From NCBI RefSeq assembly GCF_003334385.1, contig NZ_QOWN01000005.1: 64,000 bases of DNA; one strand, given 5' to 3'. This document shows, in pieces, positions 56,438-61,670 of the stretch (positions are counted from its first letter, which is position 1; each line of letters opens with the position of its first letter). The position numbers were made by a program, and so were the translations under genes. Below the pieces are notes generated by a model. It worked only from the letters and a program-made list of their open reading frames with translations, ran no database searches and was not told where the DNA came from. The DNA is from Escherichia coli. Its GTDB lineage: Bacteria > Pseudomonadota > Gammaproteobacteria > Enterobacterales > Enterobacteriaceae.

Positions 56438-58972
56438 TTAATTACTACCAAACATATCCTTGATCCAACCGGCTACACCGTCGCTGTCTTTCTGCTCTTG
56501 CTGAGCAGGTTGCTGTTGCGGCTGTTGCTGCGGCTGAGAAGACTGATCAAACGGATTGCCTGACGGCTGCTGCTGCATCTCGCTCTGCTGGCACAGCGAT
56601 TGCGGATCGCTGGTCCAGACCGGCAAGATACGCATGCCACCGCTGCAAACAAAGTTGCCGTCGTAGTCCACGCCCATATCTGCAATATCTTCTGGCGGAA
56701 CAAGATTCAGCGGCGTTGGCGTCTGGTTAGCCAGATAACGCTGATAAATCGACATTGCCCCGCTGGCACCATACAGTTTGGTCGGCTGGTTGTTATCACG
56801 GCCGACCCAGGTGATGGTCACCGTGCTGCCGTCAATGCCCGCAAACCAGGTATCTACGTTATTGTTGGTAGTCCCTGTTTTCCCTGCCAGATGCAGGTTC
56901 GGGTATTTCGCCCCAAGCTGACGACCCGTACCGCGTTGTACCACCTGCTGCATGGTCCATAGTGTCAGATACGCCGCCTGCGCCGGAACAGCGCGTTCCG
57001 CCTGCGGGAAGCTCTGATACAGCACTTTGCCATCTTCCGCGATTACCGAACGCAGCGCAGAAAGCGGTGCACGGTTACCACCGCTGGCGATGGTCTGGAA
57101 TGCCTGCGCCACTTCGATTGGCGTTAAGTTCAACGCCCCCAGCAGCATTGCCGGAACCGGATGCAACTGATCTTTCGGTACGCCCAGTTTAATCCAGGTC
57201 TCCGTAACCGCAGGCAGCCCCAGCGCCATCCCCAGATTTACCGTCGGCACGTTCATCGAACGGGTCAACGCATCCACCAGCATCACTCTGCCGCTTTCGC
57301 TATAACGACGGTCATCATTCTGCGGTGACCAGACCTGGCCATTCGGCTGACGCAGCGCAATTGGCGCATCCGCAATCCACGTATTCAGACGATAGATTTT
57401 CGGCTGGCTTAAGGCCGTCAGATAAGTCGCTGGTTTTGCAAGGGAACCAATCGAACGACGCGCCTGCATCGCACGGTTGTAGCCCGCAAACTGCGGCTCA
57501 GAACCTCCGACCATCGCACGAACTTCACCACTAAAGCGGTCGACGACCACAATCGCAGTTTCAAGATCGCTCAACTTACGCTGTTTCTTCAGTGCCGGAA
57601 TGCCTTCCACGGCGGCTTTTTCTGCCGCGTCCTGGGCCACCGAGTCAAAGGTAGTGAAGATCTTCACGCCGGAGAGATCTTTTACCTTATCGCCCAGTTT
57701 TGCCTGCAGCTCCTGACGCACCAGTTGCATAAAGGCTGGCTGAGGAGAGATCACCCCACCGCGCGGCTGAACCCCCAGCGGACGGGCACTCAACATGTCA
57801 TAGAGTTCTTGATCAATAATCTGTTGCTGTTGCAGCAGACGCAGCACCAGATTACGTCGCTCCAGCGCCAGTTTTGGGTTACGCCACGGGTTGTAGATGG
57901 ACGCCCCTTTCACCATACCGACTAACAGCGCCTGCTGGTCGAGGCTTAGCTCTTCTACCGGGCGACCAAAGTAATACAAGCTTGCCAGCGGGAAGCCGCG
58001 GATTTCGTTGTCGCCGCTCTGACCGAGATACACCTCGTTCATATACAGCTCAAGAATACGGTCTTTGCTGTAACGCGCGTCCATGATCAGCGCCATGTAA
58101 GCTTCGTTCGCTTTACGCCAGTAAGAACGCTCGCTGGAGAGGAACAGGTTTTTCACCAGCTGTTGCGTCAGCGTACTCGCACCCTGTACCGTGCGTCCGG
58201 CGGTCAGGTTTGCCAGCACCGCACGTCCGATTGAGTAGAGACTGATTCCATCATGCTCGTAAAAATGACGGTCTTCTGTCGCCAGCAAAGTATCCACCAG
58301 CAAATCCGGGAAACCACTGCGCGGCACAAACAGACGCTGCTCACCGTTTGGCGAAGAGATCATGGTGATCAGACGCGGATCAAGACGGAAGAAACCGAAC
58401 TGACGGTTGTTCTCCATATTGACGATCGTCGCCAGATGATCGCCATCAAAGGTCAGACGCGCGCGCACCTGTCCTTCTTTACTGTCCGGGAAATCAAACG
58501 GACGGCGAATCATCTCAATGCTGTTGGCCTGCACGGTAAATTCGCCAGGACGGGTCATTTTCGACACCTGACGATACTGGGTCGCCTCCAGCAGCTTCAC
58601 CATCTCGTTCTTGCTGATGGTCATGTCTGGCTCAAGATTGACCATTCGGCCATAAACTGCCGCAGGCAGTTGCCAGACCTTGCCATCAATACGGCTACGA
58701 ATTTTTTGATCGAGATAAACGCCGTAAATGGCGATCAGCACGGCAAAAACGATAGCCAGTTTTAGCAGTAGCCATAGCCAGCCGCGTTTGCCACGAGGCT
58801 TACGCCCTTTGCCTTTGCCCTTACCTTTGCGCGGCATCGGTTCTTCATCCTCATAGTCATCATAATCGTCGTAATCATCGTCATCTTCGTAACGACGACG
58901 GCTTACCTTTTGTTTGACCGGACGCGTCGGTTTCCCTTTGCGTCCAATTGGCTCGCGGTCATTCCCGGCCAT
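56438..58972 (-). CDS. mrcB: penicillin-binding protein 1B (bifunctional glycosyltransferase/transpeptidase)
   Basis: Recognised as PBP1b (844 aa from [22 protein letters not shown], acidic [15 protein letters not shown] tract). The track ORF starts 5 codons earlier; ATG at 58972 verified. Confidence 0.95.
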
Positions 58973-59015
58973 GCTTTTTCTCCGCAATATTCAGGCGCAA
59001 AAGCCCGATTTTCTG

Positions 59016-59160
59016 TTCTTCTGTTACAAGACAGAAGAAGATATCTCTCAAAATTTGTGCTCGATCGGTCCCCTCTCCCTTGAGGGAGAGGGTTAGGGTG
59101 AGGGTGAACGTGCGCGCTGATGCCCTCACCCCGGCCCTCTCCCACAGGGAGAGGGAGAAA
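59016..59160. repeat. cluster of GC-rich nested palindromes in the hrpB-mrcB spacer (resembles an E. coli intergenic repeat family, possibly Box C-like)
   Basis: Three hairpins: TTCTTCTGT-TACAAG-ACAGAAGAA at 59016-59039; CCCTCTCCC-TTGA-GGGAGAGGG at 59071-59092; CCCTCTCCC-ACA-GGGAGAGGG at 59135-59155. The last two are direct repeats of one hairpin bracketing an inner GGGTGAGGGTGA...CCCTCACCCC inverted pair. Confidence 0.7.
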
Positions 59161-59167
59161 ACCAACC

Positions 59168-61597
59168 TTACGAATACTTTTTCGTCCGTCGCGTCGGTGC
59201 AGTATTTGCCGGGTCGTCCGGCCAGACATGTTTGGGATAACGCCCTTTCATCTCTTTTTGCACCTCACGGTACGCTCCTTTCCAGAAGGCGCTCAAATCT
59301 CGTGTGATTTGTAATGGCCTTTGGGCAGGTGAAAGCAACTCCAGCACCAGCGGCACGCGCCCCTGGGCGATCGTCGGATTGGTGGCCTCGCCAAACATCT
59401 CTTGCATTCTCACCGCCAGCGCGGGCGGGTTATCTTCATGATAACGAATGGCGATCCGGCTTCCCGTCGGCACAGTGTAATGCGCAGGCAATTCACTATC
59501 CAGACGTTGCTGCATTCCCCAATCAAGTAATCCGCGTAGTGCCTGATAAATGTCGAGTGATTTCAGGCCGCGTAGTGAATGTACGCCAGTCATATGTGGC
59601 AGCAGCCACGTTTCCAGCGCTGCCAATAAACTTTCATCATCAACCGCTGGCCAGTCATATTCCGGCAACCACTTTGCGGCGCATAACAAACGCAAGCGTA
59701 GCTGTTCCGCTTCCGCCGTCCAGTTGAGCACGCTTAAACCTTTATCACGGATGCCATTAAGCATCGCCTGATGCAACTCGTCTTCTGACGGTTTCGCCAG
59801 CGGCTGCACTTTCACCGTCAACTGACCGATTTGTAGCCGACGCCAGGCTTTCAGCGTACCTTGCGCGTCATCCCACTCCACAGTGTCAGACTGCTGTACC
59901 AGCTGCGGGCAGCGTTGTACTAACTCATCAATATCGACCAGCAGCGCCAGTAAAATCCGCGCATCCGGCGAGGCGCTGCCCTGCAATAATAACGGTGCGA
60001 TCAACCATTCGTGGCGGCTTAGCGCGTCGTTGGCATCGAGCATCGCTCCCATGCCGTTTGCCAGTTGATAGCGTCCATCTTGCCCACGGCGACGAGCAAT
60101 GCGATCGGCAAACGCCCCGGCAAGTAGCGGCGCGATAAGCGAACTGTCTGCCTCACCGCCACGTACGTTTAAGCGTTTTAACAGTTGCTGACTACGTTGC
60201 TGCCAGGCTGGTTGATTGCGCGAAAACGCCACGCCCAGGTCACTATTGCCCATCCGTGGCGGCTCTTCGAGAATGGCGGCAATTTTTGCCGCGGTAGCAG
60301 CTTCGTCGTCGTTCTTCGCGCTAACCAGCATTGCCGCTAAACGCGGATCGTTACCCAGCGCTGCCATTTTTTGCCCTTGCGCACTAAGCCGTTCACCCTC
60401 CAGTGCCCCCAGCATTTGTAACAGACGTTTCGCGGCCAGTAGATTCACTACTGGCGGTTGATCCAGCCAGCTCATCTGCGCCGGATCGCTGCATCCCCAT
60501 TGCAGTAATTCCATCAGCAAACCGGAAAGATCGCTTTGTAAGATCTCCGGTTCACTTTGCGCCGCGGCGCGTTCTGCTTGTTCTTTGGCGATTAAATGCA
60601 GGCTGATACCCGGCTCCAGACGCCCGGCGCGCCCGGCACGCTGCGTCATGGATGCCTGGCTAACGCGTTGAGTAATCAGTCGCGTAAGCCCCGTGCGCGG
60701 ATCAAAACGCGCCACACGCTCCTGGGCACAATCCACCACCAGACGAATACCTTCAATGGTTAAACTGGTTTCAGCAATATTGGTCGCCAGCACCACTTTG
60801 CGCATCCCTTGCGGTGCCGGGAGGATCGCTTTTCGCTGATCGTTCAGCGACAACGCGCCATACAGCGGGCAGAGCAATACATCACTGCCGATGCGCGAAG
60901 CCAGTTGTTCCTGCACACGCTGAATTTCTCCGACGCCAGGTAAAAATAACAGTAATGATCCGCTTTCCTGACGCAGCATTTCAGCGGTGGCTACCGCAAC
61001 GGCATCGTCAAAACGCTGATGCGCGGGCAGCGGTAAATAACGGCGTTCAACCGGAAACGAGCGCCCTTCTGAGATGACGACAGGCGCTTCTGGCAGCATT
61101 TGCTGCAAGCGGTCGTTGTCCAGGGTAGCCGACATAATCAGCAGTTTAAGGTCATCACGCAGACCTTGTTGCACATCGAGTAACAGCGCCAACGCCAAAT
61201 CCGCCTGCAAGCTGCGCTCATGAAATTCATCAAGGATCACCAGTCCAACACCGCTCAGTTCCGGGTCACGCTGGATCATGCGCGTCAGCACGCCTTCGGT
61301 AACCACTTCCAGGCGGGTATTCGGCCCGACGCAGTTTTGCGCACGCATCCGGTAGCCAACGGTATCGCCTGGCTTTTCGTTAAGCAGCTCCGCCAGCCGT
61401 TGCGCGACGTTACGCGCCGCCAGACGACGCGGCTCCAGCAGGATAATTTTCCCGTTAATGCCGGGATGCGCCAGCAGTTGCAGCGGCAGCCAGGTTGATT
61501 TCCCGGCCCCGGTCGGCGCACTTAATAATACCTGCGGCGCACAATCGAGAGCGGTAAGTAATTCAGGTAAGACGGCAGCAACGGGCAACGACGACAC
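59168..61597 (-). CDS. hrpB: ATP-dependent RNA helicase HrpB (DEAH-box)
   Basis: Recognised as HrpB (Walker A APTGAGKST, DEFHER motif). Start assigned to the GTG at 61595-61597 (809 aa, as I recall the annotation); the ATG 15 codons upstream at 61642 cannot be excluded. Confidence 0.88.
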   Translation of the reverse strand: MSSLPVAAVLPELLTALDCAPQVLLSAPTGAGKSTWLPLQLLAHPGINGKIILLEPRRLAARNVAQRLAELLNEKPGDTVGYRMRAQNCVGPNTRLEVVTEGVLTRMIQRDPELSGVGLVILDEFHERSLQADLALALLLDVQQGLRDDLKLLIMSATLDNDRLQQMLPEAPVVISEGRSFPVERRYLPLPAHQRFDDAVAVATAEMLRQESGSLLLFLPGVGEIQRVQEQLASRIGSDVLLCPLYGALSLNDQRKAILPAPQGMRKVVLATNIAETSLTIEGIRLVVDCAQERVARFDPRTGLTRLITQRVSQASMTQRAGRAGRLEPGISLHLIAKEQAERAAAQSEPEILQSDLSGLLMELLQWGCSDPAQMSWLDQPPVVNLLAAKRLLQMLGALEGERLSAQGQKMAALGNDPRLAAMLVSAKNDDEAATAAKIAAILEEPPRMGNSDLGVAFSRNQPAWQQRSQQLLKRLNVRGGEADSSLIAPLLAGAFADRIARRRGQDGRYQLANGMGAMLDANDALSRHEWLIAPLLLQGSASPDARILLALLVDIDELVQRCPQLVQQSDTVEWDDAQGTLKAWRRLQIGQLTVKVQPLAKPSEDELHQAMLNGIRDKGLSVLNWTAEAEQLRLRLLCAAKWLPEYDWPAVDDESLLAALETWLLPHMTGVHSLRGLKSLDIYQALRGLLDWGMQQRLDSELPAHYTVPTGSRIAIRYHEDNPPALAVRMQEMFGEATNPTIAQGRVPLVLELLSPAQRPLQITRDLSAFWKGAYREVQKEMKGRYPKHVWPDDPANTAPTRRTKKYS

Positions 61598-61670
61598 AAA
61601 ACGCTCCAGAGGGTTAACATTCTTCGCGCCACATTGTAGCATCGCGGTAATTCATAACCGAGTGCCTCAC

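What the first reader, a model, noticed from the sequence alone, without database searches (positions are those of the whole stretch)
59011..59165. Nested GC-rich palindrome cluster between hrpB and mrcB
This 150-bp spacer holds three strong hairpins. Two are copies of the same unit (CCCTCTCCC-N3-4-GGGAGAGGG) in direct orientation, bracketing an inner inverted pair (GGGTGAGGG...CCCTCACCC). The architecture suggests a member of a dispersed intergenic repeat family rather than a simple terminator. It sits where the hrpB 3' end meets the mrcB promoter, and it generates several spurious ORFs on both strands. I cannot confirm the family name (Box C-like is my best recollection) or its function.
Basis: seen in the sequence. 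Interest (0 to 1): 0.35.

Follow-up and report, generated by a model that had tools for sequence, protein, structure and literature searches.

The report
Known BoxC repeat pair behind hrpB
The GC-rich palindrome cluster between hrpB and mrcB is a real, already catalogued copy of the E. coli "BoxC" repeat (two inverted units); about a third of E. coli strains lack it, so it is an ordinary dispensable repeat, not a new element.

Summary
Window 59071-59155 holds two inverted copies of a 34-35-nt three-block unit (CCCTCTCCC, loop, GGGAGAGGG, TTA or CCG, GGGTGAGGG). Together they form an 85-nt imperfect palindrome, 12 nt after the hrpB stop and just upstream of the predicted mrcB promoter.

These two units are listed by coordinate as TMECO 1 and 2 (also called BoxC or PIT elements) in Holder et al. 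2015. Kaplan et al. 2016 list them as G-quadruplex sites HPGQ 5 and 6.

What I added:
- The element is polymorphic across 5426 complete E. coli genomes: K-12-type junction in 3507, empty site in 1865, whole element inverted in 32.
- E. albertii has the empty site, and slippage-deletion alleles exist.
- Published Term-seq data place one weak RNA 3' end 5 nt past the foot of the hairpin.
- The 68-codon ORF running through the element is widely annotated as a hypothetical protein and has been studied as one.
- The exact purine core occurs in many copies in genomes from at least seven phyla.

Verdict: already known, dispensable here, general function still unresolved. Low interest.

The parts
59071..59105 (+). 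BoxC/TMECO unit of type A: CCCTCTCCC-TTGA-GGGAGAGGG-TTA-GGGTGAGGG-T. It equals TMECO no. 2 and HPGQ no. 6.
   Evidence: Sequence; pattern matches; identical to the Table 1 entry 164631-164597. All 9 base triads fit a purine-motif triplex, and the purine blocks form a canonical G-quadruplex motif starting at 59084.
59106..59121 (.). Central spacer between the two units (GAACGTGCGCGCTGAT). It forms the loop of the long hairpin.
   Evidence: It is homologous to the longer spacers of the other K-12 pairs, with about 10 nt missing here.
59122..59155 (-). BoxC/TMECO unit of type B, read on the - strand: CCCTCTCCC-TGT-GGGAGAGGG-CCG-GGGTGAGGG-C. It equals TMECO no. 1 and HPGQ no. 5.
   Evidence: identical to the Table 1 entry 164547-164580. 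Triads 9 of 9, and a canonical G-quadruplex motif on the - strand.
59058..59070 (.). A-side flank of the element (TGCTCGATCGGTC). It is shared with other K-12 copies and absent from the empty allele.
   Evidence: Alignment of the K-12 pairs; comparison of empty and filled alleles.
59156..59161 (.). B-side flank AGAAAA, shared with other copies. The 12 nt at 59156-59167 separate the hairpin from the hrpB stop codon (59168-59170).
59066..59066 (-). Published Term-seq RNA 3' end (MG1655 coordinate 164636, + strand). It lies 5 nt past the foot of the long hairpin.
   Evidence: Supplementary files 1 and 3 of Adams et al. 2021, with sequence context ...GGGAGAGGGGACC|G. It was listed once, with about 987 reads, and classed 'orphan'.
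58959..59165 (-). A 68-codon ORF (TTG start) that runs through the palindrome, the mrcB promoter and the mrcB start codon. Most likely not a gene.
   Evidence: It is in databases as 'hypothetical protein' on at least 1000 contigs. It is probably D8B36_18480 of the Biofilm 2024 paper. The RefSeq record jumps from locus tag RS18475 to RS18485 here.
59023..59051 (-). Context, not part of the repeat: the predicted sigma-70 mrcB promoter. The -35 hexamer TTGAGA is at 59051-59046 and the -10 hexamer TGTAAC at 59028-59023, with a 17-nt spacer.
   Evidence: Shimada et al. 2014 genomic SELEX table, located by reading. This block is conserved from E. coli to Citrobacter.

Best explanation
This is a pair of inverted BoxC units (also called PIT elements or TMECO), a repeat family known in E. 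coli since the 1990s. One type-A unit lies on the window + strand and one type-B unit on the - strand. With short conserved flanks they make an element of about 105 nt (59058-59161) placed directly behind the hrpB stop codon.

Shown:
- It belongs to a multi-copy family.
- It is an insertion-type polymorphism. About 110 nt in K-12 occupy the place of 9 nt in the empty allele, which 34% of complete E. coli genomes and E. albertii carry. It is therefore dispensable.
- It lies in the only non-conserved part of the spacer, upstream of the conserved mrcB promoter block.
- It is prone to slippage deletions between its internal direct repeats.

From the literature:
- The isolated single strand forms a triplex or G-quadruplex in vitro.
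- No stable triplex, promoter activity or terminator activity was found in vivo.
- Loci carrying these elements are unusually variable.

Inferred:
- It arrived as a selfish, somehow mobile or recombination-spread repeat and persists as a near-neutral passenger.
- Its local effect is structural. In the hrpB transcript it folds into a very stable hairpin of about 85 nt, which stops 3'-to-5' exonucleases. This would explain the Term-seq 3' end 5 nt past the hairpin foot.
- In single-stranded DNA the same palindrome promotes replication slippage.
For: Identity:
- Exact sequence and coordinate match to TMECO 1 and 2, and to HPGQ 5 and 6 between hrpB and mrcB.
- Holder et al. equate TMECO with BoxC and PIT elements.

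Family:
- Median 6 and up to 15 places per E. coli genome.
- Four further K-12 pairs were found. Three of them align with this one including flanks and spacer; the fourth (lldD-trmL) has a divergent arrangement.

Dispensability and insertion:
- Junction-specific searches of 5426 complete genomes give 3507 K-12-type, 1865 empty and 32 inverted.
- E. albertii has the empty 93-nt spacer.

Instability:
- A 64-nt deletion between the two CCCTCTCCC copies in strain N5D43.
- A 12-nt deletion between AGGGAGAGGGTT and AGGGTGAGGGTG in an O145 strain.
- A decayed remnant in E. marmotae.
- Holder's variability analysis.
- MutL-bound replication-error regions are enriched for Kaplan's G-quadruplex site list, Z = 10.6. 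That list has 52 sites, of which roughly 23 are BoxC-type, and the hrpB locus was not named.

Structure:
- Folds with z of -5.5 to -7.2.
- The long hairpin is 8 kcal/mol better than three local hairpins in RNA.

RNA 3' end: at window 59066.

No terminator-like or promoter-like site inside the element.
Against: - No transposase, target-site duplication or other hallmark of a known mobility mechanism was found.
- The filled and empty alleles differ by replacement (110 nt for 9 nt), not a clean insertion.
- The Term-seq 3' end is weak. It has about 987 reads and appears once in the three-condition table.
- Six other BoxC loci I checked have no listed 3' end, so end-protection is not a general property.
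- The exact purine core is conserved across at least seven phyla. That is hard to reconcile with pure neutrality and hints at a sequence-specific partner that nobody has identified.
Confidence: 0.85

Rival explanations
1. The pair is a selected RNA element that works like REP/BIME sequences. It would define and stabilise the hrpB mRNA 3' end and insulate mrcB from read-through. It could also lower HrpB synthesis by stalling the terminating ribosome, because the hairpin starts only 12 nt after the stop codon.
For: - The - strand RNA forms a very stable hairpin (about -66 kcal/mol for 95 nt; z = -7.2).
- A Term-seq 3' end lies 5 nt past its foot, 15 nt before the mrcB -35 hexamer.
- RegulonDB treats hrpB and mrcB as separate single-gene operons (table).
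- Citrobacter carries REP-like palindromes at the same position.
- From my own knowledge, not checked here: REP sequences within about 15 nt of a stop codon reduce expression (Liang, Rudd and Deutscher 2015).
Against: - 34% of E. coli genomes and E. albertii lack the element.
- 32 genomes carry it in the opposite orientation.
- There is no U-tract.
- PIT elements showed no terminator activity.
- No 3' ends are listed at six other BoxC loci.
- Across 141 copies in other genomes there is no strong orientation rule relative to neighbouring genes: 46 same strand versus 28 opposite upstream, 41 versus 41 downstream.
Confidence: 0.25
2. The element is a DNA structural switch (duplex, hairpin, triplex or G-quadruplex) that regulates the adjacent mrcB promoter, as Kaplan et al. 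suggested for these motifs in general.
For: - It ends 7 nt upstream of the predicted -35 hexamer.
- Two of only four canonical G-quadruplex motifs in the 64-kb window are here, one on each strand.
- Circular dichroism and NMR show G-quadruplex or triplex formation by the isolated strand.
Against: - In vivo DMS footprinting showed no protection, and the duplex form showed no triplex signal.
- Family copies lie at no consistent distance from neighbouring ORFs.
- The element is absent from a third of strains, while the promoter block itself is conserved out to Citrobacter.
Confidence: 0.07
3. The 68-codon ORF through the element (58959-59165, - strand; probably D8B36_18480) encodes a real small protein that represses curli expression.
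For: - A pUC19 clone of this coding sequence lowered csgA expression 18-fold.
- The ORF is annotated as a hypothetical protein on at least 1000 contigs.
Against: - Roughly the first half of the ORF is the translated repeat, followed by the mrcB promoter and start codon.
- It has a TTG start with AAGG immediately adjacent, leaving no usable ribosome-binding-site spacing.
- It is missing entirely from the empty allele, frameshifted by the 64-nt deletion allele and rearranged in the inverted allele.
- The RefSeq record has no CDS between mrcB and hrpB, and the tag RS18480 is skipped.
- The cloned fragment also carries the repeat RNA/DNA and the mrcB promoter, either of which could cause the phenotype.
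Confidence: 0.03

Closest known systems
BoxC / PIT elements / TMECO (Bergler 1992 and Bachellier 1990s; Hoyne and Maher 2000; Holder et al. 2015, PMC4666352)
   Same: It is the same thing. The three-block sequence, the type A (TTA) and type B (CCG) units paired in inverted orientation, the intergenic position and the exact MG1655 coordinates all match.
   Different: Nothing differs. I add only locus-specific data: allele frequencies, the inverted allele, the outgroup state and the Term-seq 3' end.
HPGQ G-quadruplex-hairpin-duplex switch (Kaplan et al. 2016, PMC5100583)
   Same: The same two sites are listed as HPGQ 6 (group HPG1, midpoint 164608) and HPGQ 5 (group HPG2, midpoint 164569) between hrpB and mrcB.
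   Different: This is a different structural reading (G-quadruplex rather than triplex) of the same DNA. The proposed regulatory role remains untested.
REP/BIME sequences and REPIN doublets
   Same: Both are extragenic GC-rich palindromes placed just after stop codons. Both often occur as inverted doublets that fold into a long hairpin, are multi-copy, and vary between strains. Citrobacter has REP-like sequences at this very position.
   Different: The sequence is unrelated. The NC_000913.3 feature table returned only coding sequences for this spacer. No RAYT-type transposase was found between paired units in the three loci I inspected. A third purine block has no REP counterpart.
Intrinsic (Rho-independent) terminators
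   Same: Both have a GC-rich stem-loop downstream of a gene, and an RNA 3' end maps a few nt after the stem.
   Different: There is no U-run after the stem; the sequence there is GGGGACCGAUCGAG. The stem is about 10 times longer than usual. The scan finds none. The literature reports no terminator activity.
Rickettsia palindromic elements (RPE)
   Same: This applies only to the distant Gracilibacteria copies. There the short palindromic repeat sits in frame inside conserved protein genes.
   Different: The E. coli copies are all intergenic. The sequences are unrelated to RPEs.

Membership tests
BoxC / PIT / TMECO | A three-block unit: a pyrimidine block CCCTC(T/G)CCC(C), a 3-5-nt loop, the purine block GGG(G)AGAGGG, a 3-nt loop, then the purine block GGGTGAGGG. 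| tested here: met
   Both units match. They are identical to Table 1 entries 1 and 2.
BoxC / PIT / TMECO | The second loop defines type A (TTA) or type B (CCG). Paired copies always combine one A and one B in inverted orientation. | tested here: met
   The + strand unit has TTA and the - strand unit has CCG. Holder names the pair 1+2 explicitly.
BoxC / PIT / TMECO | Multi-copy, dispersed and intergenic in E. coli. | tested here: met
   Median 6 and up to 15 places per genome. Other K-12 copies lie at fepB-entC, ygfF-gcvP, alx-sstT, lldD-trmL, yagA-yagE and xynR-argF, all between genes.
BoxC / PIT / TMECO | All base triads are compatible with an intrastrand purine-motif (class II) triplex. | tested here: met
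   9 of 9 Watson-Crick pairs and 9 of 9 third-strand triads (G.G:C, A.A:T, T.A:T) in both units.
BoxC / PIT / TMECO | The isolated strand actually forms a triplex. | not testable with these tools
   Shown by circular dichroism and NMR for type A and type B oligonucleotides in Holder et al.. Not seen in duplex DNA or in vivo.
HPGQ G-quadruplex motif (Kaplan 2016) | Four G3 tracts separated by loops of 1-7 nt, with the conserved loops AGA/TTA/TGA (group HPG1) or AGA/CCG/TGA (group HPG2). | tested here: met
   GGGAGAGGGTTAGGGTGAGGG at 59084 (+) and GGGAGAGGGCCGGGGTGAGGG from 59143 (-). Both are listed in the paper's table.
REP / BIME | REP consensus sequence, and annotation as a REP or RIP repeat in the MG1655 record. 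| tested here: not met
   The NC_000913.3 feature table for the spacer returned only coding sequences. The sequence is unrelated to the REP-like palindromes seen at this spot in Citrobacter. The REP consensus itself is from my memory.
Intrinsic terminator | A short GC-rich stem-loop followed directly by a U-run. | tested here: not met
   No terminator-like site on either strand of 58800-59400. The tail after the stem is GACCGATCGAGC.
MITE / REPIN-type mobile repeat | Presence/absence polymorphism with defined ends; target-site duplication; a cognate transposase. | tested here: inconclusive
   Presence/absence and both orientations are seen, and the flanks are conserved between copies. No target-site duplication is seen. 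No transposase gene lies between paired units in L077, L045 or L043.
Any Rfam RNA family | A score at or above the family's gathering threshold. | tested here: not met
   Only sub-threshold hairpin matches to eukaryotic microRNA models. The best scored 29 bits against a threshold of 74.

The most novel reading that the evidence does not exclude
The three-block BoxC/TM motif may be an actively spreading selfish element, moved in trans by an unidentified enzyme that reads its folded single strand.

Evidence consistent with this:
- At hrpB-mrcB it shows an ancestral-type empty site, a filled allele, and the whole element in the opposite orientation.
- The exact 21-nt purine core is multi-copy in genomes of at least seven phyla.
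- In one AT-rich Gracilibacteria genome, 15 of 20 copies sit inside long ORFs, including MiaB and IleRS, in the manner of Rickettsia palindromic elements.

If true, the triplex-forming third block could be a recognition feature for that enzyme rather than a regulator of neighbouring genes.
Probability: 0.25. Interest if true: 0.55.

Novelty: already known. Interest (0 to 1): 0.18.

Why it matters
For this window it matters little. The element is a catalogued, dispensable repeat, and the finding can be closed.

Two practical points follow:
- The ORFs it creates are routinely annotated, and one has been interpreted as a curli-regulating protein. That claim needs a control for RNA/DNA or promoter effects of the cloned repeat.
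- The natural empty, filled, inverted and deletion alleles at hrpB-mrcB form a ready-made series for testing whether BoxC pairs affect mRNA 3' ends, neighbouring promoters or replication fidelity.

The wider puzzle is still open and is sharpened by the copies inside genes: why is an exact 35-nt motif kept in many copies from E. coli to candidate-phyla bacteria?

Tried and rejected
- Rfam scan at a permissive E-value gave only sub-threshold matches to eukaryotic microRNA hairpin models, so there is no described RNA family here.
- The sigma-70 promoter and intrinsic terminator scan of 58800-59400 found nothing. The published mrcB promoter has a weak -10 hexamer (TGTAAC) that the scan's rules exclude.
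I therefore could not tabulate Enterobacteriaceae or give a full taxonomic count.
- I looked for a RAYT-like or other transposase gene between closely spaced units in L077, L045 and L043. Only ordinary genes or no convincing ORF lie there.
- A crude ORF-based test of orientation relative to neighbouring genes, over 141 copies in distant genomes, showed no strong rule.
- I checked Term-seq 3' ends at six other K-12 BoxC loci (gcvP-ygfF, alx-sstT, adk-hemH, tauD-hemB, zntA-tusA, lldD-trmL). None is listed, and no Rho-termination region is listed at hrpB-mrcB.
- The Dar and Sorek 2018 supplements are not held.
- My first count of "K-12-type" genomes from the 131-nt query (4189) was inflated by other BoxC pairs. 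I replaced it with junction-specific queries.
- I could not derive a simple insertion-plus-inversion history from the flanks. GGTTGGT next to the stop codon in K-12 and E. marmotae resembles the reverse complement of the empty-site spacer, but the models conflict. I left this unexplained.

Full report
**What is in the sequence**

The window is E. coli K-12-like DNA in reverse orientation. hrpB (59168-61642), mrcB (start codon at 58972) and fhuA all lie on the - strand. The hrpB-mrcB spacer is 195 nt (58973-59167).

The pattern CCCTCTCCC-N2-6-GGGAGAGGG occurs twice here and nowhere else in 64 kb. It occurred zero times in 100 shuffles.

The most economical parse is two inverted copies of one three-block unit.
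- On the + strand: CCCTCTCCC-TTGA-GGGAGAGGG-TTA-GGGTGAGGG (59071-59104).
- On the - strand: CCCTCTCCC-TGT-GGGAGAGGG-CCG-GGGTGAGGG (59155-59123).
- The two are separated by a short central spacer (59106-59121).

Either strand folds as one long three-helix hairpin. RNA of the - strand gives z = -7.2, and DNA gives z about -5.5.

**Identity**

Holder et al. 2015 (PMC4666352) list 23 "TMECO" triplex motifs in MG1655. No. 1 is CCCTCTCCCTGTGGGAGAGGGCCGGGGTGAGGGC at 164547-164580 (type B). No. 2 is CCCTCTCCCTTGAGGGAGAGGGTTAGGGTGAGGGT at 164631-164597 (type A).

With the mapping MG1655 = 164534 + (59168 - window), these are precisely window 59155-59122 and 59071-59105. The paper states that these motifs are the "BoxC" repeats of the 1990s and the "PIT elements" of Hoyne and Maher. 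It also states that five loci carry an A+B inverted pair, naming pair 1+2.

Kaplan et al. 2016 (PMC5100583) list the same two sites between hrpB and mrcB as G-quadruplex motifs HPGQ 6 and HPGQ 5. An earlier survey gives BoxC as 56 bp with about 32 copies in the literature, and 22 in its own search.

**Checks of the family features**

- Both units have 9 of 9 Watson-Crick pairs and 9 of 9 triads allowed in a purine-motif triplex.
- Each purine half is a canonical G-quadruplex motif. These are two of only four such motifs in the window.
- A 131-nt query finds a median of 6 and up to 15 places per genome in 5426 complete E. coli genomes, almost all chromosomal.
- I fetched other K-12 copies. The convergent pairs at fepB-entC, ygfF-gcvP and alx-sstT align with this one. 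Homology extends beyond the three blocks: an A-side flank (...G.GC.C..TC.GTC), a B-side AGAAAA, and the central spacer, which is about 10 nt shorter here.
- The real repeat unit at such loci is therefore a composite of about 105-130 nt.
- Rfam has no family for it.

**Population and outgroups**

Comparing the spacer across E. coli revealed several alleles.
- The K-12 type.
- An empty site with a 93-nt spacer. There 9 nt (AGACCAAAG, in hrpB-to-mrcB orientation) stand where K-12 has about 110 nt, and the hrpB stop codon is TGA instead of TAA.
- A 64-nt deletion between the two direct CCCTCTCCC copies, leaving a single hairpin (strain N5D43).
- A 12-nt deletion between AGGGAGAGGGTT and AGGGTGAGGGTG (an O145 strain).
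- An allele in which the whole element, flanks included, lies in the opposite orientation (strain SWYHX138).

Junction-specific searches give 3507 genomes with the K-12 junction, 1865 empty and 32 inverted, out of 5426.

Among outgroups, E. albertii has the empty 93-nt spacer. E. marmotae has a decayed remnant in the SWYHX138 orientation. Two Citrobacter species carry REP-like palindromes at the same position.

Everything from TTGAGAG to the mrcB start is conserved out to Citrobacter. The segment just after the hrpB stop codon is the variable landing place.

The element is thus a lineage-restricted, dispensable insertion that is visibly unstable. This agrees with Holder's finding that TMECO loci are unusually variable and with their "palindrome effect" deletions.

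**Relation to transcription**

No promoter-like or terminator-like site lies in the element. The literature reports no promoter or terminator activity for PIT elements.

Genomic SELEX predicts the mrcB promoter as TTGAGA-17-TGTAAC. This is window 59051-59046 and 59028-59023 on the - strand, starting 7 nt from the element's A-side flank.

Adams et al. 2021 Term-seq data list a curated RNA 3' end at MG1655 164636 (+), which is window 59066.
- It lies 5 nt past the foot of the long hairpin and 15 nt before the -35 hexamer.
- It has about 987 reads, is classed "orphan", and appears once in the three-condition table.

Because there is no U-run, I read this as a hairpin-protected end produced by 3' trimming rather than an intrinsic terminator. 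That reading is inference. It is not a general BoxC property: six other BoxC loci have no listed 3' end, and no Rho region is listed here.

**The ORFs**

The 68-codon ORF at 58959-59165 (- strand) translates the repeat as LVFSLSLWERAGVRA...TLTLTLSLKGEG. It then runs through the mrcB promoter and start codon.

It is in databases as "hypothetical protein" on at least 1000 contigs. It matches in size and place the "D8B36_18480" protein of a 2024 Biofilm paper, where a pUC19 clone lowered csgA expression 18-fold. I did not compare the two sequences directly.

Several things argue against a real gene:
- the ORF's composition;
- its absence from a third of strains;
- its disruption in the deletion and inverted alleles;
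- the lack of any CDS between mrcB and hrpB in the RefSeq record.

I consider a real protein unlikely. The phenotype may come from the cloned repeat or promoter.

**Wider distribution**

The hosts were:
- Alpha-, Gamma- and Deltaproteobacteria;
- Verrucomicrobia;
- Nitrospirales;
- Armatimonadota;
- a Gracilibacteria genome;
- an unclassified genome.

Most copies have a CCCTC(T/G)CCC-like block just upstream, judged by reading the listing. Gammaproteobacterial genomes show the same A+B inverted pair with a "cagtc" flank.

Broad distribution was already reported. Orientation relative to neighbouring genes shows no strong rule.

In the AT-rich Gracilibacteria genome, 15 of 20 copies lie inside long ORFs in both orientations. 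In its MiaB protein, the motif peptide falls in an insertion of about 20 residues that is absent from a solved MiaB structure. This resembles Rickettsia palindromic elements and supports a selfish, mobile reading of the family.

I found no transposase.

**Verdict**

The element is already known, both as a family and at this locus. Its general function remains unresolved in the literature.

Here it is most likely a near-neutral passenger. Its effects are structural: an RNA hairpin marking an hrpB 3' end, and DNA slippage.

Noticed in passing
window 59016-59039: A perfect 9-bp palindrome (TTCTTCTGT-N6-ACAGAAGAA) overlaps the spacer and -10 hexamer of the predicted mrcB promoter. The arms stay complementary in E. 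albertii and Citrobacter through changes that keep G-T/G-U-type pairing on the mrcB sense strand. It could be an operator or a leader hairpin.
   Followed up: partly
L006 355-466 (E. coli SWYHX138) versus window 59058-59161: In 32 of 5426 complete E. coli genomes the whole BoxC pair, outer flanks included, sits at the same site in the opposite orientation. Its A unit is of the mismatched type (CCCTCGCCCC...GGGGAGAGGG-ATA). I could not decide between an in-place inversion and an independent insertion. GGTTGGT next to the stop codon in K-12 and E. marmotae resembles the reverse complement of the empty-site spacer.
   Followed up: partly
L090-L106 (Candidatus Gracilibacteria genome JALNXF01), for example L101 9658-9700 and L103 2617-2659: In this AT-rich, code-25 genome, 15 of 20 exact copies of the motif lie inside ORFs of up to 1089 codons, most of them several hundred codons long. 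Hosts include MiaB, IleRS, RNA methyltransferases and a glycosyltransferase. The copies occur in both orientations and are read as peptides such as NPHPNPLPEGEG or ALTPTLSQRERE. In MiaB the peptide falls in an insertion of about 20 residues absent from PDB 7mjz. This resembles Rickettsia palindromic elements.
   Followed up: partly
L015-L134: The exact 21-nt purine core is multi-copy in genomes from at least seven phyla. Most copies have a CCCTC(T/G)CCC-like block just upstream (read from the listing), even though each genome embeds the motif in different flanks. In genome GL140, two subfamilies of a repeat of about 75 nt carry the motif followed by a second hairpin (ttgtgggcttgcccac or ttgcgggctccgcccgc).
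   Followed up: partly
window 58959-59165 (- strand): The repeat-derived 68-codon ORF is annotated as a hypothetical protein on at least 1000 contigs. Many cluster members are 'partial' proteins at the ends of contigs of about 59-60 kb. This suggests that short-read assemblies often break at this palindrome.
   Followed up: partly
L138 3231-3355 and L139 3231-3354 (Citrobacter freundii, C. amalonaticus): At the position where E. coli has BoxC, just after the hrpB stop codon, both Citrobacter species carry REP-like palindromes (for example GCCTGATAAGCGAAGCGCCATCAGGC). The same short non-conserved segment therefore collects different repeat families in different genera.
   Followed up: partly
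L013 1030-1062 (-) and 1122-1156 (+), MG1655 lldD-trmL: This K-12 A+B pair is arranged divergently, with the third purine blocks outermost and 59 nt between the units. The other four pairs are convergent.
   Followed up: no
window 8536 (+) and 52037 (-): These are the only other canonical G3-N1-7 G-quadruplex motifs in the 64-kb window. They have unrelated sequences and were not examined.
   Followed up: no
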